Shown: piece by piece, positions 22,327 to 39,800 of the stretch | How the letters are laid out: each line of letters opens with the position of its first letter | How positions within the stretch are numbered: position 1 is the stretch's first letter | From: an uncultured Pseudomonadales bacterium | GTDB taxonomy: Bacteria > Patescibacteriota > Microgenomatia > UBA1400 > PJMF01 | Direction: 5' to 3' | Length of the DNA: 64,000 nt | NCBI GenBank assembly: GCA_964607285.1 | Contig: CAZSJW010000007.1 | Span: forward strand, 3,079 to 67,078 | Position numbers and translations under genes: made by a program | The notes under the pieces: model-generated | Told to the model about the DNA's origin: nothing | Seen by the model: only the letters and a program-made list of their open reading frames with translations | Database searches by the model: none

Positions 22327-24270
22327 TTAGCTTACCACTTCACCTTCTTCAGCTGACTTCTTACTGTCATCCGCTGGTTTTTCAGACGATTTGGCCTCTG
22401 AATCTGCTGGTTCCGCAGATTTGCCAGCACCCTTTTCAGACTGTGCTTTTTGCATCACTTCACCAATTTTTTGTGCAGACTCATACGTTTCTTTTATGGC
22501 TGATTCCAGGGCATCTTTTGTTGCGTCATCCTTGCCCGCCAGCTCTTTAAGTTTGTTGATGTTTTCTTCAATATTTTTCTTCGTGTCTTCATCAAGTTTA
22601 TCACCATACTCTTTGAGCTGCTTTTCTAGTTCAAACGCTACGCCATTTGCTTGGTTTCTGGTCTCAACCAACTCTCGGCGTTCCTTGTCCTCCGAGGCAT
22701 GCTTTTCAGCATCAGCTTTCATCTTCTCGACTTCTTCATCTGAAAGATTAGTAGAGTTTTGGATAGTGATCTTTTGTTCTTTGCCTGAAGTCTTGTCCTT
22801 GGCTGTGACGTTCAAGATACCATTGGAGTCGATATCGAATGTGACTTCAACCTGTGGCATACCACGAGGTGCTGGTGGAATACCGTCCAGGATAAAGCGA
22901 CCTAGTGATCGATTGTCTGCAGCCATCTCACGCTCACCTTGTAAGACATTTATTTCAACTTGGGTTTGGTTGTCTGCTGCCGTTGAGAAAACCTGCGATT
23001 TGCTGGTTGGGATGGTAGTGTTTCGCTCAATAAGTGGTGTGCGAACTCCACCAAGTGTTTCTAAACCAAACGTCAAAGGCGTAACATCAAGGAGCACAAC
23101 ATCAGAAACGTCACCACCTATCACACCTGCTTGTATAGCAGCACCTAACGCAACTACTTCATCAGGATTTACCCCTTTATGTGGCTCTTTACCAAAGTAT
23201 TTTTTAACCTCTTCTTGAATTTTTGGCATGCGAGTCATACCACCGACTAAGACCACATCGCCAATGTCACTAGGTTTCATACCTGCATCTTTGAGTGCTT
23301 TCTTGACAGGTTCAAACGATTTCTGAACAAGGTCATCCACCAACTCTTCATACTTGGCGCGAGATAGCGTCAACGTGAGATGCAGTGGCTGACCTTCGTC
23401 ACCTTGGGTGATAAAAGGTTGGTTAATCTCAGTTTGTTGTGCACTGGAAAGCTCAATTTTTGCTTTTTCTGCTGCATCTTTAATGCGCTGCAATGCTTGA
23501 GGATCTTTTGAGATATCTTTACCATTTTCTTTTTTGAACTCGGCAATAATCCAGTCGACGATTTTGTTATCAAAATCATCACCGCCTAAGAACGTATCAC
23601 CATTTGTAGCTTTAACCTCAAACACTCCATCACCGATCTCTAGAACTGAAATATCGAATGTACCACCACCCAAATCATAGACAGCAATGGTTTTGCTACC
23701 TTTTTTATCCAAGCCATACGCTAGTGCGGCTGCGGTTGGCTCATTTACAATGCGCTCTACGGTCAGGCCTGCAATCTCGCCTGCTTGTTTAGTGGCTTGA
23801 CGTTGCGAGTCATCAAAGTACGCTGGTACTGTGATAACAGCACGGGTGACTGTCTGGCCCAAATAACTTTCTGCATCAGCTTTGGCTTTACCCAAAATTT
23901 TGGCTGAAACTTCCTGAGGGGTTAGTTTCTTACCATCAATTTCTACCACAGCCATGCCGTCTTTGCCTTCAGTGACGGTATATGAGACGTGCTTTACCGC
24001 CTCTTTGACTGCTTTTTCGTTAAACTTGCGCCCCATGAAGCGTTTTACAGAATTGACGGTTTTTTTGGAGTTCAAAACCATTTGGCGTTTTGCGCCATCG
24101 CCTACAATTATTTCTTCACCTTTGAATGAAACAATAGAAGGAAACGTATTCCGTCCTTCAGAAGTAGGAATAATTTTTGCAGCACCAGCCTCCATAACTG
24201 CGACTGCTGAGTTTGTTGTTCCAAGGTCAATTCCGATAATTTTTCCTTGGGCTTTTGTTGTATCTGCCAT
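22327..24270 (-). CDS. dnaK: molecular chaperone DnaK (Hsp70)
   Basis: [18 protein letters not shown] and [10 protein letters not shown] motifs. 647 aa. Confidence 0.97.
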
Positions 24271-24354
24271 GTGATCCTTTCAACTGATGATTTTTTTCTT
24301 TTAGTACAAGTTTATCTTGGTCATTTTAGCAAACGATGACTGAGACTGCTAGTA

Positions 24355-24852
24355 TCAATTTTTCTTGTCTTTTTTGACTGAGTTGCCCAGCAACACCTTG
24401 GCATGTTGAATCACTTCGCCATTCAGTTTGAAACCAGGACGTACTTCAGAGAGCACAGTCAAACTATCATCAACCTGCTCTACAGCCTCCATTGTCGCCA
24501 CATCGAACTCTTGCCCAATAGTTTCGATCCGTTGCACACCATGGCGTTCTAATGTTTGCCAGAACTGTTGCACTACCATGGACAACCCAGCATCCTGCAC
24601 TTGTTCTGACGCTCTCATCAGATGCTCAAGAGGGAGCAACAACTCTGAAACGAAATCTTTTGTGGCAAGCTTAGCCCATCGGGACTGTTCCTCACGATTC
24701 CTACGTATCAAATTCTGGTAGTCAGCCATAAGCCGCTGTTCTCGCGCTCGGGACAGCTGCAGATCTGCTTGCAACTGAGCAAGTGAATTATCAAACTCAG
24801 TCTCATCTACCTGTTCAAGTTCGTCATCTGTAATTAAAGTGTCATCAGACAT
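24355..24852 (-). CDS. grpE: nucleotide exchange factor GrpE
   Basis: 165 aa with a coiled-coil N-terminus and a C-terminal GrpE beta domain. Confidence 0.88.
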   Translation of the reverse strand: MSDDTLITDDELEQVDETEFDNSLAQLQADLQLSRAREQRLMADYQNLIRRNREEQSRWAKLATKDFVSELLLPLEHLMRASEQVQDAGLSMVVQQFWQTLERHGVQRIETIGQEFDVATMEAVEQVDDSLTVLSEVRPGFKLNGEVIQHAKVLLGNSVKKDKKN

Positions 24853-24880
24853 AAAGACTTTCTAACACATGTGTAAATAC

Positions 24881-25603
24881 TTACTCAACTATTTCAGTGA
24901 TAAGACCACGCATGTACTTCATCATAGGAATCAAGTACGAGTAATCAAATCGGCAGGAACCAAAAATTCCCACATGACAAAGTTGGCCATGGACTAACAC
25001 TGTCATATGAATAACACCAACAGGAGCTAAAAACTTGTTGCTCAACTCCTGACCATATATAACATGAACAGGGTTCTCGCCAACCGCGGATCCAAAGACT
25101 TCCTCTAGAAGTTGCACTTCTTCGATCATCTCTAGCATATTGCGCATGACTTGAATGTCATAAAACTCTGGCATCTGGAGTAAATTTGCGTATCCAGCAT
25201 GATACACTCTGGTTGGATCTACCATCGTGACTGCCAATGCGTGTGATTTATCCGCTAAAACTTTTGTAATTTGTGGCCAAAGTTGATCTGTCTCTTTGCG
25301 AGAGTTCCAAATCTTTTCTTTTGCTGAAACTTCATCAGCTACGGAAAGCTCTTTTTCCTTCATGAGCTCGTTTACATATAGTTTCAGTGCCATAGGTGTT
25401 GGCAATCTTCCTGCACTGGTATGAGATTTTGAGAGATACCCCTGTTTAGTGAGATATACCATTTCATTGCGAATAGTAGCAGGAGAAACACCGATGCTAA
25501 ATTTTTTGTCTATAGTGTCAGAACCAACAGGATCTGCAGTATTGATAAACTCATCAATAATTGCGCGAAGAATTTGCACCTGTCGAGCAGTTAGGTCGAT
25601 CAT
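24881..25603 (-). CDS. hrcA: heat-inducible transcription repressor HrcA (short form)
   Basis: N-terminal winged-helix LTARQVQILRAIIDEFINTADPVGSDTI. First gene of the hrcA-grpE-dnaK-dnaJ operon, with a CIRCE operator immediately upstream. Confidence 0.85.
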   Translation of the reverse strand: MIDLTARQVQILRAIIDEFINTADPVGSDTIDKKFSIGVSPATIRNEMVYLTKQGYLSKSHTSAGRLPTPMALKLYVNELMKEKELSVADEVSAKEKIWNSRKETDQLWPQITKVLADKSHALAVTMVDPTRVYHAGYANLLQMPEFYDIQVMRNMLEMIEEVQLLEEVFGSAVGENPVHVIYGQELSNKFLAPVGVIHMTVLVHGQLCHVGIFGSCRFDYSYLIPMMKYMRGLITEIVE

Positions 25604-25754: not shown

Positions 25755-27182
25755 GTGATGTCGGTACCCAATGCCATTCAATTTAAGAGACGTGCAAGGC
25801 GAATGAAACTGATCTTTCAGGGAAGTGTCATTTTTGTACTCGTAGCTGTAGCCATAGTCGGTGCATTTCAATTAGATGTGGTCAGAGAATATTTTTCCAG
25901 AGCTAGTGGTGAACCTGCAAACATAGTCATCGACACTAAATTTGTAGTGGGCCCGCTGCCACGCCCATGGCGTAACTTGGCTCAAGGTGGTGAAGGCCAT
26001 GATTGGCTCCTGCAACCGTTGGCACCACAAGTTAAAGCAATCAATACTGAGTACGTTCGTCTCGATCACATCTATGATTTTTATGACATCGTGCAAGGCA
26101 CATCTGGAAACTTAACCTTCAATTTTTCAAAACTAGACCCTGTACTAGATGGCATCACAGCTGCTGGGGCGAAACCATACATTGCACTGTCCTACATGCC
26201 TCCTGTCATCAGTTCAGGAGACATTATCTCCACACCGAGAGATTGGAATGAATGGCAATTAGTAGTGCAAAAAACTGTAGAACACATCAGTGGCACTCGT
26301 GGTATTTCAGATGTGTACTATGAGGTTTGGAATGAACCAGATTTATTCGGTGGGTTCAAGTACTACGGTGATAAAAACTATCTCACCATGTACACCTACT
26401 CTGCACAAGGTGCAGCAAACGCGCGTGGAGTGAGACCATTCAAAATAGGTGGACCTGCAATCACAGCCCTGTACAAAAACTGGATTGAAGCCTTGGCAAA
26501 ACATAGTCTACGAAACAACCTAAGACTTGACTTTATTTCATGGCATCGCTACAGCATGGATATTGATGATTATGTGGATGACGCAGTCAACGCCCGAACA
26601 TGGATGCAGCAGTACCCTCAGCTAGCAGCCACCGAGTTTCACATTACTGAATGGGGTCATGACAGTAGAAACCACGCAGGATACGATGGAGCACTTGGTG
26701 CTGCCCATACTGTAGCAGGTAGCATAGAAATGGCTGGTCGAGTTGATAGAGCCTTCATTTTTGAAATTCAGGATGGCAAAGACCCCGCAGGACAAGCTAT
26801 GTGGGGACGATGGGGAATGTTTACACACAAGGACGCTGGAGCACAAGCAAAGCCTCGGTATAGGGCACTGCAAATGCTTGAACGCCTAGGTGGCGAACGA
26901 CTGCAACTATTTGGCAAAGGCAGTTGGGTTAAGGCAATCGCGGCACTAGACGGGGAAGAGAACGTTGGTGTCGTCTTAGCTAACTATGATCAATTTGGGC
27001 GGAATATTGAGAATGTGCCAATTACTTTTTCTAATATTCTCCCTGGCTCATACACCATCACCAAGCAACTCTCAAACGGCCAACAATTTACGGAGACAAT
27101 TGCTACAACTGCTGCTCAACTACAAACACAGTTTTTGATGCCTGCGAACACGTATGGGTTTGTGCAGATGGTGAAAAATTAG
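25755..27182 (+). CDS. membrane-anchored clan GH-A glycoside hydrolase (GH39/GH5-like TIM barrel)
   Basis: N-terminal TM anchor (VIFVLVAVAIVGAF), catalytic acid/base motif EVWNEPD and nucleophile motif ITEWG. Confidence 0.6.
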   Translation: MMSVPNAIQFKRRARRMKLIFQGSVIFVLVAVAIVGAFQLDVVREYFSRASGEPANIVIDTKFVVGPLPRPWRNLAQGGEGHDWLLQPLAPQVKAINTEYVRLDHIYDFYDIVQGTSGNLTFNFSKLDPVLDGITAAGAKPYIALSYMPPVISSGDIISTPRDWNEWQLVVQKTVEHISGTRGISDVYYEVWNEPDLFGGFKYYGDKNYLTMYTYSAQGAANARGVRPFKIGGPAITALYKNWIEALAKHSLRNNLRLDFISWHRYSMDIDDYVDDAVNARTWMQQYPQLAATEFHITEWGHDSRNHAGYDGALGAAHTVAGSIEMAGRVDRAFIFEIQDGKDPAGQAMWGRWGMFTHKDAGAQAKPRYRALQMLERLGGERLQLFGKGSWVKAIAALDGEENVGVVLANYDQFGRNIENVPITFSNILPGSYTITKQLSNGQQFTETIATTAAQLQTQFLMPANTYGFVQMVKN

Positions 27183-27214: not shown

Positions 27215-30200
27215 TTATTCTACATCATCGATAGGAATTGATACACAACAGGTGGATATATCGTACCCGTTGAACTTTGAATTCTTTGAGTCAAGAAAAA
27301 TTTTTGGGTTGTTCGAGTAGCGAAGCATGTATGCATCCCAAACACCTTGCCTGTTGGTGGAACTTGCTCCCTTCTGATCAAGAGGGATAACAACCGTGTC
27401 TATCTTGCGTCTTTTGGCGGTTCTCTTAGAATAAGCAACTACTTGATCTAAATAATCATGTGTGTCTATACCAGCTAAGGTATTTTCCAGCGGATTGTTC
27501 CCTCGAATAATAAGTACATCTTTGCCTGTTCTTTTTTCAGTACCTTCAATCAGCAAGAAAGCACCCCCAACCCGACAATTTTTTTTACTCTCAGGATTAC
27601 TCAGGATGATGATCGGCGTGAGCTTGGGATTATTCACCATAATGTCATCCAAGCTTGTCCAACAGGCGTCACTAATGTATCCAGATAGTTCCCCCAGGAT
27701 TCCTCGATCAGGTTTAAACAAGAAAGTGGACGTATTACCATACTCTTGATTCTTCATATGTCGGGATAGCTCTTGCCGTAAACCTTTTACATCGAACATA
27801 TAACTAAGGGCTTTTCTTTTGTTTTGGTCTGGAAATGCCTTTGGTAGGTACTCTTGGATGATGGTATGTTCAAATAACTCTACTAAATTTGCCATTGCCT
27901 CAAAGCTTAGTCGAGCACTGCTTACCTCCTGGAGATTACCTCTTATTGCGGTATTTTTTTTCACGAATGTGTGAAGGATTGCACTTCTTAAAAATGAATC
28001 AATGGCTGTGTTCCTTTTAAATACTTGCTTGCTTGCAAGCAACACATCTATCAATTGATCTACTGTTGATATTTTTTGCATTGCTACAATTATGCCCTCT
28101 AGGGAGGCTAGCTGACTTTTTAAGAGAGGTGCAACCTCAGAGTTGACTGCTAAAGTAGCTGTAACCCTCGAAATTTGCTGGTTTATTAGTTCATGCATTG
28201 ATTGCTGTACTTCAGCAATCATCTGCTGAGGAGCAATTTGAGAATCGAAATCAATTGCTTTGAGCAAAGTGTTTTGTAGGCTCAAGAATTGAGAACGAGA
28301 TTCCTGGGTAAACTCAATCTCATCAGAAGATAAGTCTGTAGAAAGAACTCGAACTACTTCTTCTTCATACCCCAGGGCTATCTCAAGTTCTCCTCTGCTC
28401 TCAGCTTCAAGCACTGAAATGAGAACTGTTTCCAGTCGTTTGCTTCTAGACGATTGACTAATATCAAAACGGGTGAGGCCACGCACTAACTCAGCTACAA
28501 CCGGGTTTCTCATTTCTTGGATACTCAATTTTTTCCTCAATATCTTTTCAATCAAATCAGTAACACGTGCTTTCAGTTGTTTTCTACCCTCTGCACCCAA
28601 TTCAGTGACTCCAAGACTCGCAGCACTCTTTGGAACTTCACTAGCGGTATCAATACTGCAAAATACTCGATACGTCTTGGGTAATACCAGATTTGACATT
28701 GAATCAGTAAAATCAATTACGCGTTTAAATTCTTCAGGTGTGAACTCTTGTAGCTTTGACGCAGGATAGTTTTCCCTGATGAACTTCCATAACTTATTTG
28801 CATCTATACTTTTAGTTACCTCAAAAAACATTTTTACAAACCATGCACTAACACTAAAGTTCAATATTTCTGTGTACAGACTAAGCGTTTCATCGAGTTT
28901 TACAAACCCGTGTGGATGAGCCATCGAATATGATATGAGTACATCTGCAAATGTTTGGTCTATGCCAAACAACTGAGCAATGACTACCTGATGCTTAGTC
29001 CATAGTTCAAATATTTTTACCCCATCATATATATATTTCTTTTCTTTCTGATCGTTCTGAATATTGCATTTTTCTCTCAGAGCTCTAAATAGAAGTAGTT
29101 GCTGTTCTGTACTTTCTTTTTTGTGGTCTGCTGTATCAGAAATCAGAATCAATGCAAACTGTTGCTCACTCGGATCGTACTGTACCTCAGTCAATCTCGA
29201 TGACAACTCCTCGATGTCTCCCTTTTTAGAAAAGCTGAAAAGCTGGGCTAAGGCACCAGCATGCCTTCCGTCAGTATTTAAATTAGTAAGTGAACCATCT
29301 GGGCTAAGTAACCAGTTCCGAACTGCTGGTATTCTCAAAAGTTTTTTCTGATCTTCCTCTGAATGGCTGTTCAGTAGTGATTGTTGCAGTGAGGATGAGA
29401 TTTGAGTTGCATCAGTTCTATAGCTTGAAGAAAGAGTAATAAACTCCTGGGCTCTATCAGGTTGTTTTAAAATCATCTGAAAGATAATATTATTAAGAAA
29501 ATCTATTGTGTTCTCATTTGTTGGCGTAAGTACTCCAAGCAGTTTGTGAAATACTTCTAAATCTGCGGCTATTTCACCTGCAAAGCCTTCACCAACTGTG
29601 CGTATAATGGTTGACATTTCCAGAAGCACTACATTAGGACTAGTGTCTCTAAGCCAAGGGAGAGACTTTAAAATGAATGCATCCCATATCTTGCTTGCCA
29701 ATTCATTTTTTGTTGTAACTATCAGTTGAATAAAAACTTCTAAAAAACCAATATACTTCATACCATCCTGATGATCACAGTTGGTAATAATATGAAGTAC
29801 TATGTCCACAGCATGTTCCAGAAACGTATCAGGAACTTCAGAGCCATTTACTACAAGTAAACATATCATATTCAAGTAGTCCATCTGTGAAAGCTGTGCT
29901 AATCCCGCAAGAAAATCTGGGTTAGATGCAGTTGGTAATTTTTTTTCTACACATACATCACTTAGCGCATAATGCGCTTGAGTAAACACCCAATCATGCT
30001 CTGGTTGAACATTTGGTTGAAACTGTATCGCATCTAAAAACAAACGAAAATCACCGCGGGATAATTGAAGATTGATGACACGCCTCAAGAAAAGATCTCT
30101 ATCATTTATCAAGAAGTCCTCCACAGTATGTAACTCAAACAACTCAGAGATAACAGCGTGCTGCCGAAGCTGCAGCTCATCTATGGCATCATATGAATTT

Positions 30201-30754
30201 GATGTGTATCCAATTTTATCTTGCTCAACAAGCTCTATAAGCTTTTCATCAGGCAAGCTATGTAAATACTCAGGGATGTTGATCATACGTCTCCATAATG
30301 CATCCTCAAGATTTTTAAGAGTTTCGCCAGTAACTGCAGCAATAGCATCTGCTCTCTCAAGAATGCTGGCGTGCAAACTTATGAGCATTTCCGAATTATT
30401 CTTAATAAACCTCAGGTAATGAGTTACTCTCCCAAGCTCGAAAACGGATTTAGCATTTGAAATAAATTTTTGCAGCATCTGCATATGCTTCCCATAGAAC
30501 TCCTCATCAACATGCACTGGTAAAGATCCAGCCTTGACTTCGCTGATAGATACCGCAGAATCCATTATGGAAAAAAGTGTGTCCTTTTGAAAAGGGTACA
30601 CAGACATCAAAAAACCGGGCTCATTGTATCCACCGTTTTTACTGAAAACACTTAAGTCAGCAATGATCTTAGCTGTATCTTCTTTCGAGAAAAAAACTTC
30701 AGCATCAACGTTCTGCTCTTGATCTAAACTGGGTGAAAATAACTGTTCAGCCAT
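27215..30754 (-). CDS. giant hypothetical protein (1179 aa), mostly alpha-helical, with a C-terminal Cys/His/Asn-containing region
   Basis: Uninterrupted 3.5-kb ORF with no recognisable domain. The C-terminal ~180 aa contain ISDACWTSLDD, GIDTHDY and YSNNP in a Cys-His-Asn order. Confidence 0.55.
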   Translation of the reverse strand: MAEQLFSPSLDQEQNVDAEVFFSKEDTAKIIADLSVFSKNGGYNEPGFLMSVYPFQKDTLFSIMDSAVSISEVKAGSLPVHVDEEFYGKHMQMLQKFISNAKSVFELGRVTHYLRFIKNNSEMLISLHASILERADAIAAVTGETLKNLEDALWRRMINIPEYLHSLPDEKLIELVEQDKIGYTSNSYDAIDELQLRQHAVISELFELHTVEDFLINDRDLFLRRVINLQLSRGDFRLFLDAIQFQPNVQPEHDWVFTQAHYALSDVCVEKKLPTASNPDFLAGLAQLSQMDYLNMICLLVVNGSEVPDTFLEHAVDIVLHIITNCDHQDGMKYIGFLEVFIQLIVTTKNELASKIWDAFILKSLPWLRDTSPNVVLLEMSTIIRTVGEGFAGEIAADLEVFHKLLGVLTPTNENTIDFLNNIIFQMILKQPDRAQEFITLSSSYRTDATQISSSLQQSLLNSHSEEDQKKLLRIPAVRNWLLSPDGSLTNLNTDGRHAGALAQLFSFSKKGDIEELSSRLTEVQYDPSEQQFALILISDTADHKKESTEQQLLLFRALREKCNIQNDQKEKKYIYDGVKIFELWTKHQVVIAQLFGIDQTFADVLISYSMAHPHGFVKLDETLSLYTEILNFSVSAWFVKMFFEVTKSIDANKLWKFIRENYPASKLQEFTPEEFKRVIDFTDSMSNLVLPKTYRVFCSIDTASEVPKSAASLGVTELGAEGRKQLKARVTDLIEKILRKKLSIQEMRNPVVAELVRGLTRFDISQSSRSKRLETVLISVLEAESRGELEIALGYEEEVVRVLSTDLSSDEIEFTQESRSQFLSLQNTLLKAIDFDSQIAPQQMIAEVQQSMHELINQQISRVTATLAVNSEVAPLLKSQLASLEGIIVAMQKISTVDQLIDVLLASKQVFKRNTAIDSFLRSAILHTFVKKNTAIRGNLQEVSSARLSFEAMANLVELFEHTIIQEYLPKAFPDQNKRKALSYMFDVKGLRQELSRHMKNQEYGNTSTFLFKPDRGILGELSGYISDACWTSLDDIMVNNPKLTPIIILSNPESKKNCRVGGAFLLIEGTEKRTGKDVLIIRGNNPLENTLAGIDTHDYLDQVVAYSKRTAKRRKIDTVVIPLDQKGASSTNRQGVWDAYMLRYSNNPKIFLDSKNSKFNGYDISTCCVSIPIDDVE

Positions 30755-30808: not shown

Positions 30809-31936
30809 CTACACTACTTTGGAAACAAAACTCAGTAAATTCTCTTGGAACTTTTCCTTGCTAAACTGCTTGGCGTGGCGGTGGATAGTGGCTGCTTGCA
30901 GATCCATCTTATCCAGCCGCTTCACAGCTTCAAGAATATCCTCAACACTAAGCTTGCTGAAAAAAATACCAGTTATACCTTCTATAACTGACTCCAGTGG
31001 TCCTCCTGACTTGTGTGCAATAACTGGTACGCCATGACCCATAGCTTCAACAGGCACAATACCAAAATCTTCATCTTCAGCTGGAAAAAACAGAGCTATT
31101 GCACCACTGTATAGCTTTGAGAGTTCTGCATCCGTAACCTCACCTAAAAACTCTATGGTTGGGCCAGCAATTTGTTTCAGGTATGCCAAACCCTTGCCCG
31201 ACCCCACAACTTTAAGTGGCAATCCAAGGGCGTTGGCGGCTGCAATGGCTAAATCCACATGTTTGCTTTGCGCAATGCGCCCAACGGAAAGATAGTAAGT
31301 ACGTTTGGAAAGTGGTGTCTTTGGAGCCAGTTCTGGAACATTGACGGGCGGATACAACACAGTTGCTTCACGTCTATAAAATTTTTGAATTCTTCTCTTT
31401 GTTTCAACAGAGTTTGCAATGAAGTGGTCAACTTCCTGTGCAATGTACCAGTCACGAACACGTAAGTAGTGATTTATCACAGAGCCTAATACTCGGGTAA
31501 TAGGATTACGTTTCCAGTCAGTCATTGTTGTATACCCATAGAGCGATCTAGCAGGTGTGTGGCAGTAACAAACATGCACTCCATTTGGCACATGAACGGC
31601 CTTAGAAAAATAGGCATTACTCGATGAGATCACCAGATCATACTCAGATAAATCAAAACGAGAAAAGTATTCAGGCGCCCACACCCGCAATGGTGAAAAC
31701 AATTTTCTATACAATGGCAACCGAGTAAGCCAACTCTCACGCAAATCCCAGTTAGCAAATCGCTGCCAATGCCCTCCTGCCACCACTGGATCAGAAAACG
31801 CTATGTACACAGGAGCTTCTGGAAAGAGCTCATGTATCGCTTCCAAAACACGCTCTGCACCACCATACTCGCGCAAGTAGTCATGCGCCAATGCAATCTT
31901 GAGTTTTTTGAGCTTCTTTGGAATTGTAATTGCCAT
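30809..31936 (-). CDS. GT4-family glycosyltransferase
   Basis: C-terminal EX7E motif EDFGIVPVEAMGHGVPVIA and a GT-B fold pattern. Confidence 0.8.
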   Translation of the reverse strand: MAITIPKKLKKLKIALAHDYLREYGGAERVLEAIHELFPEAPVYIAFSDPVVAGGHWQRFANWDLRESWLTRLPLYRKLFSPLRVWAPEYFSRFDLSEYDLVISSSNAYFSKAVHVPNGVHVCYCHTPARSLYGYTTMTDWKRNPITRVLGSVINHYLRVRDWYIAQEVDHFIANSVETKRRIQKFYRREATVLYPPVNVPELAPKTPLSKRTYYLSVGRIAQSKHVDLAIAAANALGLPLKVVGSGKGLAYLKQIAGPTIEFLGEVTDAELSKLYSGAIALFFPAEDEDFGIVPVEAMGHGVPVIAHKSGGPLESVIEGITGIFFSKLSVEDILEAVKRLDKMDLQAATIHRHAKQFSKEKFQENLLSFVSKVV

Positions 31937-31944
31937 AATTTGGA

Positions 31945-32928
31945 TTAAAAAAGTGCTTCTTGAACGGACAACTCAAACTGGTCTTTTGGTAACAATGAAA
32001 TAAGAGATCTAAACTCTAGTTCCTCAAATCGCTCTGCTACTACAGCCTTATCATATGACCTCAGCAGGCAGTCGTCCAGAGTAAACTCGATAGGCACATC
32101 CCTCTGAATTCGTGCTAAGTTTTGGCTCAAGTATGCTTGTGTTTTTTCTGCCAACAGTTTCTGGGTTAGGGCAGGTTTAAACAGAGAAGCATGCTTGTTT
32201 CGTTTGGATTCATCTTCCACTACCTCGTAGACACCGTCCAGTGAACCAAAAGTAGCTATCAGGTTCACCGCAGTTTTCTGACCCACTCCCTTGACACCAG
32301 GAATATTGTCTGATGCATCACCCATTAAAGCTTTAAGATCAACAATTTGATTGGGGAAAACACCCATTTTTTTCAATACACCCTCCGAATCGTACTCTAT
32401 ATCGTGTGTTTGCACCCCTTTACGAACAGCCCGCGCTGGGATCCACACTGTAACTTGGGGGTCTACTAACTGAAATAAGTCTTTATCTCCCGTGATCACC
32501 GTGGACAAAATGTCTAGTCTGTCATGTAACTGCTGAGTAATAGTACCGATGAGATCATCAGCTTCATACCCCTCAAGGGAAAACTGTGGGATGTTTAATG
32601 TAGTAACCAAATCTTTAATAATCTGAATTTGTGGTTTGAGATCATCGGGCATTTCTGGTCTGTGCGCTTTGTACTCTGCATACGCTTGAGCTCGCTGCGT
32701 CGGACCTTTATGATCAAACGTCACTACACAATACTCTGGGCGGAAATCGGACAAAACAGTCAGCAATATTCTGGTAAATCCATATACAGCATTTACCAAA
32801 GTGCCATCGGCAGCTGTCAAACCAGGAAAAGCATGATAGGCACGGTAAATAAGCGCATGTCCATCAATGAGGAGTAGTCTTTTGCGATCTGCAGTTTCTA
32901 GATAGTGTTCTGTAAGTGTCTCAGGCAT
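31945..32928 (-). CDS. stand-alone 5'-3' exonuclease (Pol I N-terminal/FEN-like domain)
   Basis: LLLIDGHALIYRAYHA, GYEADDLIGT and ITGDKDLFQLV motifs, plus the H3TH motif ASDNIPGVKGVGQKTA. Confidence 0.85.
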   Translation of the reverse strand: MPETLTEHYLETADRKRLLLIDGHALIYRAYHAFPGLTAADGTLVNAVYGFTRILLTVLSDFRPEYCVVTFDHKGPTQRAQAYAEYKAHRPEMPDDLKPQIQIIKDLVTTLNIPQFSLEGYEADDLIGTITQQLHDRLDILSTVITGDKDLFQLVDPQVTVWIPARAVRKGVQTHDIEYDSEGVLKKMGVFPNQIVDLKALMGDASDNIPGVKGVGQKTAVNLIATFGSLDGVYEVVEDESKRNKHASLFKPALTQKLLAEKTQAYLSQNLARIQRDVPIEFTLDDCLLRSYDKAVVAERFEELEFRSLISLLPKDQFELSVQEALF

Positions 32929-32948: not shown

Positions 32949-34865
32949 CTAGACAGATGCTGTTTCAATTTCAGCAATCTTTGCTTTTGGGATACCCATT
33001 AGTGTAGCAAACTCGTCACCATCAAGCGACTCGATTTCAAGCAAGCGTTCCGAAACAACTTCTAATTGCTTGCGATGTTTTATCAAAATTGCCATGGCAC
33101 GAATCTCTCCTTCAGCAATAATCTCGCGAATCTCTTTATCTACTTGCTCTTGCAATGGATCAGAAATTTTGTGGGGTTCACCGTAAGATTTTGAGTAGTT
33201 CATGTTCTCATACTGTGGCCCAAAGTACATAGGTCCCAATTTGCTCATGCCATACTCAATCACCATTGCTCGTGCAAGCCGTGTGGCTCGATCAATATCG
33301 CTACTAGCACCCGCCGTCAGTTCATTAAACACCAACCGTTCAGCGGCACGACCACCCAACAAAACAGCAATCTCATCTAAAATTTCTGATTTAGTAGTTT
33401 GCAGCTTGTCACGCTCAGGCGGAGTTAGTGTAAATCCAAGTGCTCGCCCTCGTGACACAATAGAGATACGATGCACTGGATCTGCTTGAGGAGAAATATG
33501 TGCTATCACTGCATGACCAGCTTCGTGGTAGGCAGTCATCTTACGTTCAAGCTTGTCCTGGAGTCTTTTCTTACTTGGACCAAGTTTCACTTTAAGTGAA
33601 GCTTCTTCTACATCTTCCATAGTTACCGCATCACGGCTTTCTCGGGCTACAGAAATAGCTGCCTCGTTCAACATATTCTCAATATCTGCACCTGAAAATC
33701 CGACCGTTCTCTTGGCAACTCGATCCCAATCAAAGTTTTTAGCAAACGGCTTGCCTTTTGCATGAATTGAAATGATGTATTTTCGCTCTTCTAAATCAGG
33801 CAAGTTAACCATAACCCGCCTATCAAACCGACCTGGTCGAACCAAAGCAGGATCGAGCATATCGCCTCGATTTGTAGCTGCCATAACGATAACATTGTCA
33901 TTCTGTGTAAAGCCATCCATCTCAACCAAAATCTGGTTGAGTGTCTGTTCACGTTCATCATGACCACCCATGCTTCCAAATCCCCGCATACGACCAATGG
34001 CATCAATTTCATCAATAAATATAATTGAAGGTGCAAGTTTTTTTGCTGTCGTAAATAAATCGCGAACCCGTGACGCACCCACACCAACTAGCATTTCCAT
34101 AAACTCGCTTCCAGCAATTGAAAGAAACTGCACATTAGCTTCGCCAGCAACTGCTCGAGCCAAAAGCGTCTTACCCGTTCCAGCAGGGCCGACTAGCAGT
34201 ACACCTTTTGGAGTACGAGCACCCACCTTTGAGTACTTTTTCGGATTGCGAAGAAAATCAACTACTTCTTCGAGCTCTTTTTTAGCTTCGTCCATCCCTC
34301 CAACTGCATCAAATTTGGTATTCTGCTTACCTTTTACAAATAGCTTAGCCTTACTTCGGCCAATACCCATGATGCCATCTTGCGCGCCTCTTGCTTGACG
34401 AAAAATGAAAAAGAAGAAAACTAGCATCAAAATAATCGGAACAATGTTGATAGCAAGTTCCCAAAGTAGTCTGCCTGTACTGACATTATTTACCTCGAGG
34501 TTGATCGCTGCTAAATCAATCCCTGCATTTTCCAAGACGGATAATGCTTCCTGCCCATCTTCTTTGCGAGCTACTCGCAAACTCCCATCTTGGTATTCAG
34601 CACGCAAATCATTTCCTGCAACCATTACTTTAGAAACTTTTTGGGATTGCACATCTCGAACCAACTCGCTAAGCCCAATCCGCTGTGTCGAAGAGTCACC
34701 AAAAAGTGAAAGTATAAAGGGTAGGAACAAAACTGCTAAGAAAATATATAAAATACTCTTATTCAACAAAGAATTTAAATTCAGCTGAAACTCAAACTCA
34801 CGGATACGCATCTTGCGTGGCTGCTCGGGAGTTTGGGTTGATTGTGGTTTTTTTTGATTTGCCAT
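32949..34865 (-). CDS. ftsH: ATP-dependent zinc metalloprotease FtsH
   Basis: N-terminal TM segments, AAA module ([26 protein letters not shown]) and zinc motif HEAGHAV. Confidence 0.95.
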
Positions 34866-35327: not shown

Positions 35328-36320
35328 TTATCCTAAACCCATACTTGTTCGTACTGTACTCATAGTCTGCCTGGCAAGCATGCCTGCTCTTTTGGCACCA
35401 TCTCTGATAACGTCATCAACATATCCCACATCTATTGCCAATTGCCTTCTCTGGTCTTGTATTGGCTGTAACTGCTCGATAATTGCTAGAGCTAACTCTC
35501 TCTTGAGATCACCATACCTGAGTCCCGACTTTGTGTACTGCTGTACATACTCTTCTCGTTTCTCTTTGCCTTGAAAGAGTTCCACAAATCGTAGTAAATT
35601 CGCAACTCCACCCTCTGTAGGAAACACAGATCCTTTTCCAGAGTCAGTTGGGGCACTAGCCAGACGTTGTTTGATTGTATCCAGGTCATCTGTAAGTGTG
35701 ATGAAACTACCCTCCACCGACTTGCTCATTTTGCCACTCCCCTGTAAAGATGGAATGTACTCGCCAGCTGTGGCAAACCGTTTTGGCTCGGGAAAGTGAG
35801 ACCCGTACTCTGTATTAAATTTTCGAGCAATTTCTCGGGCGATCTCAAGATGGGGTTCTTGATCCAATCCTACAGGTACCAACTCAGCTTGATATAACAA
35901 GATATCTGCTGCCATAAGTAATGGATAATTGAGCAGTGCCATTGTGGCAGCATCTGGATACTGTTTCACTTTTTCTTTGAAAGTGGGGAGATGATGCATG
36001 CGCGCTATCGACATCACAGAAGAGAAATAAAACATTAGTTCAAAATGATCTGATACATCGGACTGCATAAATAAAATACTCTGGTTTGGATCTAAGCCAC
36101 AAGCTAAATAGTCCAGAATGACCTCACGCCTATTCACACGTAATTCTTCGATCGAGTACGGAGTAGTTAATGCGTGTGCATCTGCAACCATGTACAGTGG
36201 CTCGTATGTTGTGTCTGCCTGTAAAGCCAACATACCTTTGACGGCACCAAAATAATTACCAAGGTGCAGACGACCAGTAGCACGAATACCAGAGAGGACA
36301 CGACGAGTTGTTTGTGGCAT
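35328..36320 (-). CDS. trpS: tryptophanyl-tRNA synthetase
   Basis: HIGH-type motif RLHLGNYFGA and KMSKS. 330 aa class I synthetase. Confidence 0.9.
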   Translation of the reverse strand: MPQTTRRVLSGIRATGRLHLGNYFGAVKGMLALQADTTYEPLYMVADAHALTTPYSIEELRVNRREVILDYLACGLDPNQSILFMQSDVSDHFELMFYFSSVMSIARMHHLPTFKEKVKQYPDAATMALLNYPLLMAADILLYQAELVPVGLDQEPHLEIAREIARKFNTEYGSHFPEPKRFATAGEYIPSLQGSGKMSKSVEGSFITLTDDLDTIKQRLASAPTDSGKGSVFPTEGGVANLLRFVELFQGKEKREEYVQQYTKSGLRYGDLKRELALAIIEQLQPIQDQRRQLAIDVGYVDDVIRDGAKRAGMLARQTMSTVRTSMGLG

Positions 36321-39061: not shown

Positions 39062-39130
39062 TTGCGGAGCCGGGAGTCGAACCCGGCCTGTGAGATTATG
39101 AGCCTCACGTGCACCGTACACTACCCCGCG
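39062..39130 (-). tRNA. tRNA with CAT anticodon, probably initiator tRNA-fMet (C1-A72 mismatch), short D-arm
   Basis: Manual fold of the minus strand: CGCGGGG-TA-D arm-TGAGG-CTCATAA-TCTCA-CAGG-CCGGG-TTCGACT-CCCGG-CTCCGCA-A. The 5' and 3' ends match the E. coli initiator tRNA pattern. Only 69 nt, so the D-loop assignment is uncertain. Confidence 0.55.
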
Positions 39131-39240: not shown

Positions 39241-39314
39241 GCCAGGGTAGCTCAGTTGGTTAGAGCATGGGATTCATAAACCCAAGGTCGAGAGTTCGAA
39301 TCTCTCCCCTGGTA
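39241..39314 (+). tRNA. tRNA with CAT anticodon (elongator tRNA-Met or lysidine-modified tRNA-Ile2)
   Basis: GCCAGGG-TA-GCTC-AGTTGGTTA-GAGC-A-TGGGA-TTCATAA-ACCCA-AGGTC-GAGAG-TTCGAAT-CTCTC-CCCTGGT-A. Canonical cloverleaf with G1-U72; CCA is not encoded. Confidence 0.8.
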
Positions 39315-39320
39315 CAAATA

Positions 39321-39800
39321 TTAAACAGTTCGCTCCAAACTCACATCGATCTCCACAAAACCTTGCTGCTTATAAAACTTGATTGCGCCCAGGTTTGCCC
39401 AATAGGAATTTACGAACAATTTTTGATACCCATTTTGCACAGCCCACTCTCTACAGACCTCAACTAACTGCGCGCCAACACCTTGCGATCTAAACTCTGG
39501 CATAACGCCCATATTGTCAATTTCTAGGTATTTTGATCTGCGATAGTCGATTGGCTTGTGGCTGGCTGCTAGGTACCCAACAGGTTTGTTCTCTTCACTC
39601 ATTGCCAAGAAGCAAACAGCACTAGGATCAACAACTAGATTGCGGTAATACGCCTCCCCAGCCGGTGACTGCGCCCAATCTACCAGCATGTCAGGATCGT
39701 ACTGCGCATTATCAGTTATCACTTGGTCATTGAGTGCCTGTACTGCCTGCCATTCATCAGACCGGGCTTGGCGAATTGTTATCATGGGGATAGTATACAA
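39321..39800 (-). CDS. GNAT-family N-acetyltransferase
   Basis: Acetyl-CoA binding motif RSQGVGAQLV (Q/R-x-x-G-x-G/A) and typical GNAT length. Its start abuts the stop of the upstream giant ORF (39800/39801). Confidence 0.8.
   Translation of the reverse strand: MYTIPMITIRQARSDEWQAVQALNDQVITDNAQYDPDMLVDWAQSPAGEAYYRNLVVDPSAVCFLAMSEENKPVGYLAASHKPIDYRRSKYLEIDNMGVMPEFRSQGVGAQLVEVCREWAVQNGYQKLFVNSYWANLGAIKFYKQQGFVEIDVSLERTV

What the first reader, a model, noticed from the sequence alone, without database searches (positions are those of the whole stretch)
27215..30754. 1179-aa domain-less giant protein, last gene of an ftsH / 5'-3' exonuclease / GT4 gene string, with a possible C-terminal Cys-His-Asn catalytic arrangement
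The uninterrupted 3.5-kb ORF has no detectable conserved domain. The C-terminal ~180 aa hold a Cys followed by Trp (ISDACWTSLDD, reminiscent of the papain-type CW catalytic Cys), a downstream His (GIDTHDY) and an Asn (YSNNP) in the order seen in CA-clan cysteine peptidases and transglutaminase-like enzymes. Its position, on the same strand downstream of ftsH, the exonuclease and the GT4 gene with short gaps, suggests co-transcription. The layout of a long helical targeting region plus a small C-terminal enzymatic module recalls polymorphic toxins or effectors. This is speculative.
Basis: inference. Interest (0 to 1): 0.6.

Follow-up and report, generated by a model that had tools for sequence, protein, structure and literature searches.

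The report
Uncharacterised Patescibacteria protein with GNAT-like end
The 1179-residue gene is real and belongs to a large, unnamed protein family of ultra-small (Patescibacteria/CPR) bacteria whose conserved C-terminal end is predicted to fold like a GNAT acyltransferase with an invariant cysteine, not like a papain-type protease or a polymorphic toxin.

Summary
The ORF (27215-30754, minus strand, 1179 aa) exists as described. It has no Pfam, NCBIfam, PADLOC, PHROG or PDB sequence match. It is not an orphan: an exhaustive HMMER search found 683 cluster representatives (458 at E<=1e-10). These share only the C-terminal ~490 residues. Record titles are almost all Patescibacteria.

Cys1031 is invariant in 151 of 151 aligned members and Trp1032 is present in 146.

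AlphaFold2 with an 89-sequence alignment gives a confident model (pLDDT 93, pTM 0.89): a helical domain followed by an alpha/beta domain with GNAT strand and helix order. The best PDB fold matches are GNAT acetyltransferases (KacT, NAA40, AtaT, HAT1), all weak. No papain or transglutaminase match appears in the top 50. The canonical CoA-binding motif is absent.

There is no conserved neighbour, secretion signal or immunity gene, and no copies in phage or plasmid collections. In oral Saccharibacteria the protein is more conserved than its neighbours.

Best reading: a cytoplasmic enzyme with a divergent GNAT-fold catalytic domain, possibly cysteine-dependent, on a lineage-specific helical scaffold. 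Substrate and chemistry remain inferred.

The parts
27215..30754 (-). Complete ORF of 1179 aa plus stop. Member of an unnamed, mainly Patescibacteria protein family.
   Evidence: ORF listing and translation. There are 683 family representatives at E<=1e-3, and P0006 and P0007 align over the full length at E 1e-142.
28730..30754 (-). Lineage-specific N-terminal region (aa 1-675). Predicted all-helical, acidic, with no signal peptide or TM segment.
   Evidence: Iterated jackhmmer against the 151 members: aa 1-490 are shared only with P0006 and P0007, and aa 492-689 also with P0008. Helices come from a low-confidence single-sequence model. No TM-like segment was found; K+R 62 against D+E 98. The N-termini of 34 other long members have no Pfam domain.
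27743..28729 (-). Conserved helical domain of the family module (aa 676-1004). It carries the Gly-rich motif LGxxxxGxxGxxQL (G715, G720, G723) and R762.
   Evidence: Conservation in 151 members, consensus sequences, and high-confidence helices H3-313 of model m7e675d717fb1.
27218..27742 (-). C-terminal alpha/beta domain (aa 1005-1179) with GNAT-like topology beta1-alpha1/alpha2-beta2-beta3-beta4-alpha3-beta5-alpha4-beta6-beta7.
   Evidence: AlphaFold2 with an 89-sequence alignment: pLDDT 93.1, pTM 0.89, strands E316-326, 356-363, 372-384, 390-399, 431-435 and 481-484. Top Foldseek PDB hits are KacT, NAA40, AtaT, GmvT, TacT and HAT1.
27659..27691 (-). Invariant alpha1-alpha2 segment E1022-L-S1024-G1025-Y-I-S-D1029-A1030-C1031-W1032. 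Cys1031 is at the start of a short helix.
   Evidence: Counts in 151 members: E 148, S 146, G 148, D 142, C 151, W 146. A1030 is 95% conserved. Helix H342-345 of the model corresponds to aa 1031-1034.
27491..27505 (-). R1084-G1085-N-N1087-P1088 at the C-terminal end of beta4. It occupies the place of the canonical GNAT beta4/alpha3 cofactor loop but does not match Q/RxxGxG/A.
   Evidence: Counts in 151 members: R 151, G 146, N 149, P 150. Alignment A5. hhalign places the canonical RSQGVG opposite DTHDYL.
27350..27355 (-). N1134-R1135 of the (T)NR(P) motif in the beta5-alpha4 loop.
   Evidence: N in 150/151 and R in 150/151 members. Position relative to E431-435 and H447-457 of the model.
27263..27274 (-). 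F1161-N1162-G-Y1164 motif in the beta6 region.
   Evidence: F in 146, N in 150 and Y in 145 of 151 members.
27458..27460 (-). Not conserved.
   Evidence: Column composition: E 51, K 18, S 15, G 13, D 12, Q 11. It is Lys in P0002.
27308..27313 (-). Not conserved.
   Evidence: Column 1148: K 28, E 21, N 18. Column 1149: L 73, A 20, N 14.

Best explanation
The gene encodes a soluble, probably cytoplasmic protein of a large uncharacterised family that is essentially confined to Patescibacteria (CPR).

The family is defined by a C-terminal module of about 490 residues. The module is a helical domain packed against a divergent GNAT-fold (acyl-CoA N-acyltransferase-like) domain.

The near-invariant polar residues are E1022, S1024, D1029, C1031-W1032, E1070, R1084-G-x-N1087-P1088, N1134-R1135 and F1161-N1162-x-Y1164. 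They fall on the elements that form the substrate cleft in GNAT enzymes: the alpha1-alpha2 segment, the end of beta4, the beta5-alpha4 loop and beta6.

The domain is therefore most likely an active group-transfer (acyl- or aminoacyl-transfer) enzyme. It has a non-canonical donor-binding loop, and Cys1031 is either a covalent acyl carrier or an essential active-site residue. The lineage-specific N-terminal helical region (aa 1-675 here) would act as a scaffold or partner-binding part.

Shown here: family membership, the conservation pattern, the confident predicted fold and topology, and the absence of the triad. Inferred: placement of the invariant residues in the cleft (from GNAT topology, not from coordinates), enzymatic activity, the role of the Cys, donor and acceptor identity, and cytoplasmic location.
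For: Family:
- 683 representatives at E<=1e-3 and 458 at E<=1e-10, with alignments confined to query residues ~690-1170 for all but three.
- 80 genomic loci. 53 carry Saccharibacteria or other Patescibacteria names. 16 are labelled 'uncultured Gammaproteobacteria', and several of these are syntenic at 80-90% identity with Patescibacteria-named loci.

Conservation:
- C1031, G1064 and R1084 are present in 151/151 members. N1134, R1135 and N1162 are present in 150/151, N1087 in 149/151, and E1022 and G1025 in 148/151.

Fold:
- AlphaFold2 model with pLDDT 93.1 and pTM 0.89, with GNAT order of strands and helices.
- 12 of the top 13 Foldseek PDB hits are GNAT enzymes: KacT 5zgn_C (E 0.034, prob 0.99), NAA40, AtaT and GmvT (TacT and HAT1 follow lower in the list). 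About 145-160 columns align, with target TM 0.45-0.51.
- Acetyltransferase-like hits also appear among viral models.

Cellular role rather than a weapon:
- No TM-like segment in 148/151 members.
- Neighbours are unrelated housekeeping genes.
- No copies in IMG/VR, INPHARED phages or PLSDB plasmids.
- GC3 is native.
- In Nanosynbacter the protein is 95-98% identical while neighbouring genes average 86-92%.
Against: - The GNAT assignment rests only on a predicted structure and weak Foldseek scores (no E<=1e-3; target TM ~0.5).
- No sequence or profile method links the domain to GNATs. Pfam, NCBIfam and PDB profile searches were empty. hhalign against a RimI-like GNAT profile gave probability 3%.
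- The canonical Q/RxxGxG/A pyrophosphate loop is absent, so acyl-CoA use is not assured.
- I know of no described GNAT family with an invariant alpha1-alpha2 Cys, and a literature search found none.
- I could not inspect coordinates, so the proximity of Cys1031 to the beta4/beta5 cleft is untested.
Confidence: 0.5

Rival explanations
1. The C-terminal ~180 aa form a papain/CA-clan or transglutaminase-like thiol enzyme with a Cys1031-His1099-Asn1148 triad. The protein would be a polymorphic toxin or effector with a helical targeting region.
For: The Cys-Trp dipeptide is invariant and sits at the start of a short helix followed by antiparallel strands. The protein is large with a variable N-terminal region.
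Against: - His1099 and Asn1148/1149 are in variable columns, and no conserved His exists in the domain that this protein also has.
- No CA-clan, NlpC/P60 or transglutaminase chain is among the top 50 of 264 Foldseek PDB matches.
- The conserved C-terminus and variable N-terminus are the reverse of polymorphic toxins.
- There is no secretion signal.
- There is no downstream immunity gene and no conserved partner.
- N-terminal identity is 95% among Nanosynbacter species.
Confidence: 0.04
2. The GNAT-like domain is a conflict-system effector: a GNAT-type toxin, or a module of 'polyvalent' proteins of mobile elements. It would acetylate aminoacyl-tRNA or another target of a host or competitor.
For: - The best structural matches include the TA toxins KacT, AtaT, GmvT and TacT.
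- The closest full-length homologue, P0006, lies between an Xre-type HTH gene and a serine recombinase.
- In Nocardia arseniciresistens the module is embedded at aa 2405-2905 of an ORF of more than 5567 aa, with a weak, sub-threshold SecA-like P-loop match (E 1.6e-4, 21.8 bits against a cut-off of 27) and about 9 HTH domains.
- In P0144 (2469 aa) the module is internal.
- One locus pair (L026/L057) shows 54.5% identity for this protein against 82-91% for its neighbours.
Against: - For the window gene and most CPR members, neighbours are housekeeping genes and there is no antitoxin-like partner.
- The family is absent from 2.9 million viral contigs, 50,697 phage records and 72,556 plasmid records.
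- GC3 is native.
- In Nanosynbacter the protein is more conserved than its neighbours in nearly all of the 68 locus pairs compared.
- The protein is about 7 times larger than GNAT toxins.
- The acetyl-CoA motif A is missing.
Confidence: 0.15
3. The GNAT-like domain is a non-catalytic pseudo-enzyme: a ligand-binding or structural module that has lost cofactor binding. The protein would work as a large scaffold.
For: The canonical Q/RxxGxG/A loop is absent and there is no profile similarity to active GNAT families. The rest of the protein is a long helical array, with one weak HEAT hit among relatives.
Against: About 20 polar or small residues are >=90% conserved across members that share only ~25% identity overall. 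They include a 151/151 Cys and Arg and three Asn present in 149-150 of 151 members. That pattern is typical of active sites rather than scaffolds.
Confidence: 0.15
4. The domain is a GNAT-fold transferase that does not use acyl-CoA. Instead it would use aminoacyl-tRNA (as Fem/MurM, L/F-transferase, ATE1 and MprF do) or acyl-ACP (as LuxI-type synthases do). This is a sub-variant of the best explanation.
For: Motif A is missing, as I recall it is in those tRNA- or ACP-dependent GNAT-fold families (established knowledge; its absence here). The invariant N-R and R-G-x-N-P could bind phosphates of a nucleic acid or phosphopantetheine (inference).
Against: No Pfam hit to FemAB, Leu_Phe_trans, ATE, DUF2156 or autoinducer-synthase families for any of about 70 members scanned. 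None of those families appears among the listed fold matches.
Confidence: 0.15

Closest known systems
GNAT (Gcn5-related N-acetyltransferase) superfamily. The nearest solved structures by Foldseek are KacT (5zgn), AtaT (6ajm, 6gtq), GmvT (9ilr), TacT (7ak7-9), NAA40/NatD (7kd7, 4u9w) and HAT1 (9mjg, 2p0w).
   Same: The predicted order of secondary structure is beta1-alpha1-alpha2-beta2-beta3-beta4-alpha3-beta5-alpha4-beta6-beta7, with long antiparallel beta2-beta4. About 145-160 residues superpose (probability up to 0.99). Conserved residues concentrate on the elements that build the GNAT cleft.
   Different: There is no sequence or profile similarity. The Q/RxxGxG/A cofactor loop is replaced by R-G-x-N-P plus a longer loop. 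There is an invariant Cys-Trp in alpha1-alpha2. The domain is always preceded by a conserved helical domain of about 320 aa and usually by 300-1300 further residues. It is not a small stand-alone toxin and has no antitoxin neighbour.
Papain-like (clan CA) cysteine peptidases and transglutaminase-like enzymes
   Same: A Cys followed by Trp at the start of a helix, as in the papain 'CW' motif.
   Different: There is no conserved His or Asn/Asp partner. The predicted fold is different, and no such chain is among the listed fold matches.
Polyvalent proteins of phages and conjugative elements (Iyer et al. 2017, PMC5512222)
   Same: A few non-CPR relatives are giant multi-domain proteins in which the module is internal: a Nocardia ORF of more than 5567 aa with a weak SecA-like P-loop match and an HTH array, and P0144 of 2469 aa. 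That paper notes that GNAT domains occur in polyvalent proteins.
   Different: The GNATs described there are RimI-like, which this domain is not. The window protein and most of the family sit in chromosomal housekeeping contexts. The family was not found in viral or plasmid collections.
Polymorphic toxin systems
   Same: A large protein with a small C-terminal putative enzymatic domain.
   Different: The C-terminus is conserved and the N-terminus variable, the reverse of polymorphic toxins. There is no trafficking domain, no signal and no immunity gene, and the protein is under purifying selection in Nanosynbacter.

Membership tests
Clan CA papain-like / transglutaminase-like thiol enzymes | Nucleophilic Cys at the N-terminus of a helix, often followed by an aromatic residue | tested here: met
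   C1031 is present in 151/151 and W1032 in 146/151 members. The Cys is the first residue of model helix 342-345.
Clan CA papain-like / transglutaminase-like thiol enzymes | Conserved catalytic His downstream of the Cys | tested here: not met
   The His1099 column reads E 51, K 18, S 15, G 13, D 12, Q 11. The only half-conserved His columns of the domain (1026 at 55%, 1127 at 52%) are Tyr and Gln in this protein.
Clan CA papain-like / transglutaminase-like thiol enzymes | Conserved Asn/Asp third residue after the His | tested here: not met
   Columns 1148 and 1149 are variable, with K/E/N and L/A/N as the commonest residues.
Clan CA papain-like / transglutaminase-like thiol enzymes | Papain-like fold | tested here: not met
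   The model has pLDDT 93. The top 50 Foldseek PDB hits contain GNATs and helical noise but no CA-clan chain.
GNAT superfamily | Conserved core topology beta1-alpha1-alpha2-beta2-beta3-beta4-alpha3-beta5-alpha4-beta6-beta7 | tested here: met
   DSSP elements of the model over aa 1005-1179 follow this order.
GNAT superfamily | Significant structural similarity to solved GNAT domains | tested here: inconclusive
GNAT superfamily | Motif A Q/R-x-x-G-x-G/A at the beta4-alpha3 junction (acyl-CoA pyrophosphate binding) | tested here: not met
   The family consensus is IRGLNPxENxINxLxxxDF. hhalign aligns the canonical RSQGVG with DTHDYL, so the Gly residues are missing.
GNAT superfamily | Sequence or profile similarity to known GNAT families | tested here: not met
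   There were no Pfam GNAT hits for the query or for 25+34+6 relatives, apart from the separate N-terminal canonical GNAT of P0007. hhalign probability was 3%. A PDB profile search gave only chance hits.
GNAT superfamily | Acyl-CoA binding and acyl transfer activity | not testable with these tools
   Needs biochemistry or ligand co-folding.
GNAT-type toxin-antitoxin toxins (AtaT/TacT/KacT/GmvT) | Small stand-alone toxin (~150-180 aa) with an adjacent antitoxin gene | tested here: not met
   The protein has 1179 aa. Upstream is GT4 and downstream a convergent GH39 gene. No recurrent small partner was found at 58 loci.
Polymorphic toxins | Conserved N-terminal trafficking part, variable C-terminal toxin, immunity gene immediately downstream | tested here: not met
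   The conservation pattern is reversed. There is no signal or TM segment, and the downstream gene is convergent.
Polyvalent proteins of mobile elements | Location on a phage, plasmid or conjugative element, with several recognisable effector domains in one polypeptide | tested here: not met
   For the window gene: housekeeping neighbourhood, native GC3, and no other recognised domain. The family is absent from viral and plasmid collections. Only rare non-CPR relatives resemble this architecture.

The most novel reading that the evidence does not exclude
The family would be a previously unrecognised class of cysteine-dependent GNAT-fold enzymes that work through a covalent Cys1031 thioester (ping-pong transfer). 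They would have a new donor-binding loop (R-G-x-N-P / T-N-R-P) and be conserved across much of Patescibacteria. They would be tethered to fast-diverging helical scaffolds that select lineage-specific macromolecular targets, for example a CPR-specific protein- or RNA-modification system.
Probability: 0.2. Interest if true: 0.65.

Novelty: new variant of a known kind. Interest (0 to 1): 0.42.

Why it matters
Patescibacteria make up a large share of bacterial diversity, and much of their proteome is unannotated. This work turns one 'domain-less giant' into a defined family with several useful properties:
- There are at least 683 clusters at 50% identity.
- No model exists for it in the Pfam, NCBIfam, PADLOC or PHROG libraries searched here.
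- It has a confident structural model, a short list of invariant residues and a testable chemical hypothesis.

In oral Saccharibacteria the protein is syntenic and more conserved than its neighbours. It is therefore likely to serve a core cellular function in organisms that are now genetically tractable. If the invariant Cys proves catalytic, it would add an unusual mechanism to the GNAT superfamily. If not, the family is still a useful marker and a candidate for a new Pfam entry.

Tried and rejected
1. Single-sequence AlphaFold2 of the full protein gave pLDDT 38 and was unusable.
2. The word-index homology search found only the protein itself plus one relative, both with the single sequence and with a 25-sequence profile. 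The exhaustive HMMER search was needed.
3. PDB sequence and profile searches gave only chance hits.
4. Pfam, NCBIfam, PADLOC and PHROGs gave nothing for the query or relatives.
5. hhalign of the C-terminal domain profile against a RimI-like GNAT profile, built from the window's own GNAT gene, gave probability 3%.
7. Neighbourhood analysis of 58 non-redundant loci found no conserved partner. The Nanosynbacter locus has only unrelated housekeeping genes around it: NUDIX, SDR, S51 peptidase, GrpB, LepA, guanylate kinase and LssY_C.
8. Searches of viral contigs, phage records and plasmid records found no match, including with the Nocardia module as query.
9. There is no relationship to the second giant ORF of the window.
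10. Literature searches for a described GNAT family with a catalytic Cys, or for this family in Saccharibacteria or Patescibacteria, found nothing relevant.
11. Horizontal acquisition was rejected because GC3 is native.
12. N-terminal hypervariability as a general property was rejected because identity is 95% among Nanosynbacter species.

Full report
**1. The observation**

The ORF at 27215..30754 (minus strand) is uninterrupted, starts with ATG and encodes 1179 aa. A GGTAGGG stretch lies just upstream of the start.

It follows, on the same strand:
- trpS (35328-36320);
- a 121-aa ORF;
- ftsH (32949-34865; Walker A GPAGTGKT and HEAGHA are read directly);
- a 5'-3' exonuclease (31945-32928; PF02739 and PF01367);
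- a GT4 glycosyltransferase (30809-31936; PF00534 and PF13439).

The last three gaps are 20, 8 and 54 nt. The next gene downstream, a GH39-family glycoside hydrolase (25755-27182), is convergent, so the giant ORF is the last gene of the string. No terminator-like site lies in the 54-nt gap.

The motifs ISDACW (C1031), GIDTHDY (H1099) and YSNNP (N1148/1149) are present. Pfam, NCBIfam, PADLOC, PHROGs and PDB sequences give no match. The literal observation is confirmed.

**2. It is not an orphan**

The word-index search found only the protein itself and one distant relative, P0002. In P0002 the C-terminal 140 aa are 33% identical. ISDACW is retained, but His1099 is Lys.

The exhaustive HMMER search over 1.84 billion representatives found 683 proteins at E<=1e-3, 458 at E<=1e-10 and 35 at E<=1e-30.
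- Two proteins (P0006 and P0007, 29-30% identity) align over the full length.
- One (P0008) aligns from residue 514.
- All the others align only with residues ~630-1175.

An iterated local search confirmed that aa 1-490 are shared only with P0006 and P0007. The family is therefore defined by a C-terminal module of about 490 aa. In 80 genomic loci the module sits at the very C-terminus of proteins of roughly 460-1800 aa. The exceptions are noted in section 6.

Record titles of the 80 loci break down as follows:
- 32 Saccharibacteria;
- 21 other Patescibacteria (Nomura-, Morani-, Kaiser-, Yonath-, Peregrini-, Dojka-, Magasanikbacteria and Parcubacteria);
- 16 'uncultured Gammaproteobacteria';
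- 6 'bacterium';
- one each of Methanosarcinales, Myxococcaceae, Omnitrophota, Oligoflexia and Nocardia.

Several 'Gammaproteobacteria' loci are syntenic at 80-90% protein identity with Patescibacteria-named loci. Examples are L026/L057, L069/L041 and L040/L035. Those labels are therefore unreliable, and the family is essentially patescibacterial.

**3. The proposed triad**

I aligned 151 members to a family HMM.

| Residue | Conservation |
|---|---|
| Cys1031 | 151/151 |
| Trp1032 | 146/151 |
| His1099 | variable column: E 51, K 18, S 15, G 13, D 12, Q 11 |
| Asn1148 | variable column: K, E, N commonest |
| Asn1149 | variable column: L, A, N commonest |

The only half-conserved His columns of the domain (positions 1026 and 1127) are Tyr and Gln in this protein.

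The truly conserved set is: P1015, R1017, E1022, S1024, G1025, D1029, A1030, C1031, W1032, P1043, G1064, E1070, R1084, G1085, N1087, P1088, F1101, A1113, N1134, R1135, F1161, N1162 and Y1164. Independent MAFFT alignments agree.

The His and Asn are not.

**4. Fold**

AlphaFold2 on residues 690-1179 with an 89-sequence alignment gave pLDDT 93.1 and pTM 0.89.

Residues 690-1002 form about 15 helices and one short strand. Residues 1005-1179 have this order of elements:
- strand 1005-1015;
- short helices 1019-1041, with Cys1031 opening one of them;
- strands 1045-1052, 1061-1073 and 1079-1088;
- helix 1098-1115;
- strand 1120-1124;
- helix 1136-1146;
- terminal strands.

This is the GNAT order beta1-alpha1-alpha2-beta2-beta3-beta4-alpha3-beta5-alpha4-beta6-beta7 (established knowledge of the superfamily).

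Foldseek against the PDB returned no hit at E<=1e-3. Twelve of the 13 best hits, and most of the top 50, are GNAT enzymes. KacT (E 0.034, prob 0.99), NAA40, AtaT and GmvT are among those 13; TacT, HAT1, alpha-TAT1, YhbS and AAC enzymes follow lower in the list. About 145-160 columns align, with target TM 0.45-0.51. BFVD gave acetyltransferase-like viral proteins at similar weak scores. No papain-like, NlpC/P60 or transglutaminase chain appears in the listed hits.

Sequence-level support is absent. A family profile against the PDB gave only chance hits. hhalign against a RimI-like GNAT profile, built from the window's own GNAT gene at 39321-39800, gave probability 3%. The single aligned stretch puts the canonical RSQGVG-alpha3-beta5 opposite DTHDYL-alpha3-beta5. 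That register is consistent with the fold, but it shows that the Q/RxxGxG/A cofactor loop is missing.

The domain is therefore GNAT-like in fold (my confidence about 0.8). It fails two defining sequence features of canonical GNATs.

**5. How it probably works**

By GNAT topology, the invariant residues lie on the four elements that build the substrate cleft:
- the alpha1-alpha2 segment (E-x-S-G-x-x-x-D-A-C-W);
- the end of beta4 (R-G-x-N-P);
- the beta5-alpha4 loop ((T)-N-R-(P));
- beta6 (F-N-x-Y).

About 20 residues are >=90% conserved against a background identity of about 25%. That pattern argues for an active enzyme rather than a scaffold.

The most economical mechanism is group transfer in the GNAT cleft. 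Donor binding would be non-canonical, with Arg and Asn replacing the Gly-rich loop. Cys1031, at a helix N-terminus, would act as covalent acyl carrier or essential active-site residue. Acyl-CoA, aminoacyl-tRNA and acyl-ACP all remain possible donors. This step is inference; I could not inspect coordinates.

No TM-like or signal-like segment exists in the query or in 148/151 members. The default location is therefore cytoplasmic. The acidic, helical, lineage-specific N-terminus most likely acts as a scaffold or partner-binding region. One relative gives a weak HEAT hit, and 34 long relatives have no Pfam domain in their N-termini.

**6. Context and rivals**

Neighbourhoods of 58 non-redundant family loci share no recurrent gene. 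The flanking genes are ribosomal protein S2, TrmD, ClpP, TIM, DNA ligase, primase and aminoacyl-tRNA synthetases, among others. No recurrent small partner was found. The ftsH, exonuclease and GT4 linkage is specific to this window.

In nine oral Nanosynbacter species the gene is syntenic. It lies between GrpB and LepA-like genes, about 5 kb upstream of hrcA-grpE-dnaK, which is a loose echo of the window's own arrangement. There the protein is 95% identical in the N-terminal part and 97-98% in the module. Across the Nanosynbacter locus pairs it is 94-98% identical while the neighbouring genes average 86-92%. That indicates purifying selection rather than an arms race.

The family is absent from IMG/VR viral contigs, INPHARED phages and PLSDB plasmids. 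GC3 of the gene (0.343) is native. These results argue against a polymorphic toxin, a TA toxin or a mobile-element weapon for the window gene.

Some evidence points the other way:
- P0006 lies between an Xre HTH gene and a serine recombinase.
- P0007 carries an extra canonical GNAT at its N-terminus, in a core-gene context.
- P0144 (2469 aa) has the module internally.
- A Nocardia arseniciresistens ORF of more than 5567 aa has the module at aa 2405-2905, after a weak SecA-like P-loop match and before about 9 Xre-type HTH domains.
- One locus pair (L026/L057) shows 54.5% identity for this protein against 82-91% for its neighbours, with the N-terminus most diverged.

I therefore keep a conflict-related use of the module in some lineages as a minority rival.

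**7. Comparison with known families and novelty**

The closest known kind is the GNAT superfamily, by predicted fold only. The family differs from it in four ways:
- it lacks motif A;
- it has an invariant Cys-Trp in alpha1-alpha2;
- it has the R-G-x-N-P, N-R and F-N-x-Y signatures;
- the GNAT-like domain is always fused to a conserved helical domain of about 320 aa.

No curated library holds a model for it (Pfam 2025, NCBIfam 20.0, PADLOC, PHROGs). Literature searches found no description. I file it as a new variant of a known kind.

**8. Verdict**

Interest is moderate: a large, conserved, unannotated patescibacterial family with a confident model and a testable active-site hypothesis, but no demonstrated function and a familiar fold.

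Noticed in passing
window 39801-44585 (-) and 39321-39800 (-): A second giant ORF (1594 aa) has only weak, sub-threshold Pfam hits: Peptidase_M48 at aa 134-166 and ABC1 kinase-like at aa 1371-1463. A 159-aa RimI-like canonical GNAT gene abuts it directly downstream. It is unrelated in sequence to the 1179-aa protein.
   Followed up: partly
L058 45-16747 (Nocardia arseniciresistens NZ_JBKORD010000020.1): One ORF of more than 5567 aa runs off both ends of the fetched stretch. It has a weak SecA-like P-loop match near the N-terminus, the family module at aa 2405-2905, and then about 9 Xre-type HTH domains. This is the only locus whose title names a strain rather than a MAG. It had no match in PLSDB plasmids.
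   Followed up: partly
L084 10001-14062 (protein P0007): One of the two closest full-length homologues carries an additional canonical Pfam GNAT domain (aa 91-183) at its N-terminus. It therefore has a classical GNAT and the divergent GNAT-like domain in one polypeptide. Its context is aspS, serS and secA genes.
   Followed up: partly
L002 2377-7507 and L003 (protein P0006): The other closest homologue is preceded by a 70-aa Xre-type HTH gene and followed by a large serine recombinase. This suggests a mobile-element location, unlike the window gene.
   Followed up: partly
L013, L015, L027, L073, L078, L083: In six loci the family gene is split into two adjacent same-strand ORFs. These could be frameshifts, pseudogenes or assembly errors.
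   Followed up: no
L026 5991-9491 versus L057 4-3525: Two closely related genomes have neighbouring proteins 82-91% identical, but the family proteins are only 54.5% identical (22-54% in the N-terminal 600 aa, 57-77% in the module). This is the opposite of the Nanosynbacter pattern and may reflect paralogue replacement or local rapid divergence.
   Followed up: partly
L008, L014, L026, L027, L032, L036, L040, L042, L048, L060, L062, L069, L070, L074, L076, L078; L004: Records titled 'uncultured Gammaproteobacteria' (and one 'Methanosarcinales') carry the family. Several are syntenic at 80-90% identity with Patescibacteria-named MAGs. The L004 protein has the same length and the same profile score as that of the Saccharibacteria locus L005. 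The taxonomic labels look wrong.
   Followed up: partly
JAHISJ01 (L043 and L051); CAURVP01 (L022 and L066): Two different family members occur on different contigs of the same MAG, so some genomes carry paralogues.
   Followed up: no
window 22327-25603 (-) and L011 14052-16669: Both in the window and in Nanosynbacter loci, hrcA-grpE-dnaK lies a few kb downstream of the family gene on the same strand. This loose synteny fits a Saccharibacteria-related origin for the window.
   Followed up: partly
window 39062-39130 (-) and 39241-39314 (+): Two divergently oriented tRNA genes lie just downstream of the GNAT / 1594-aa ORF pair.
   Followed up: no
method: The word-index protein search returned 2 hits for this family, even with a 25-sequence profile, whereas the exhaustive HMMER search returned 683. 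Very divergent families can look like orphans with the indexed tool.
   Followed up: yes
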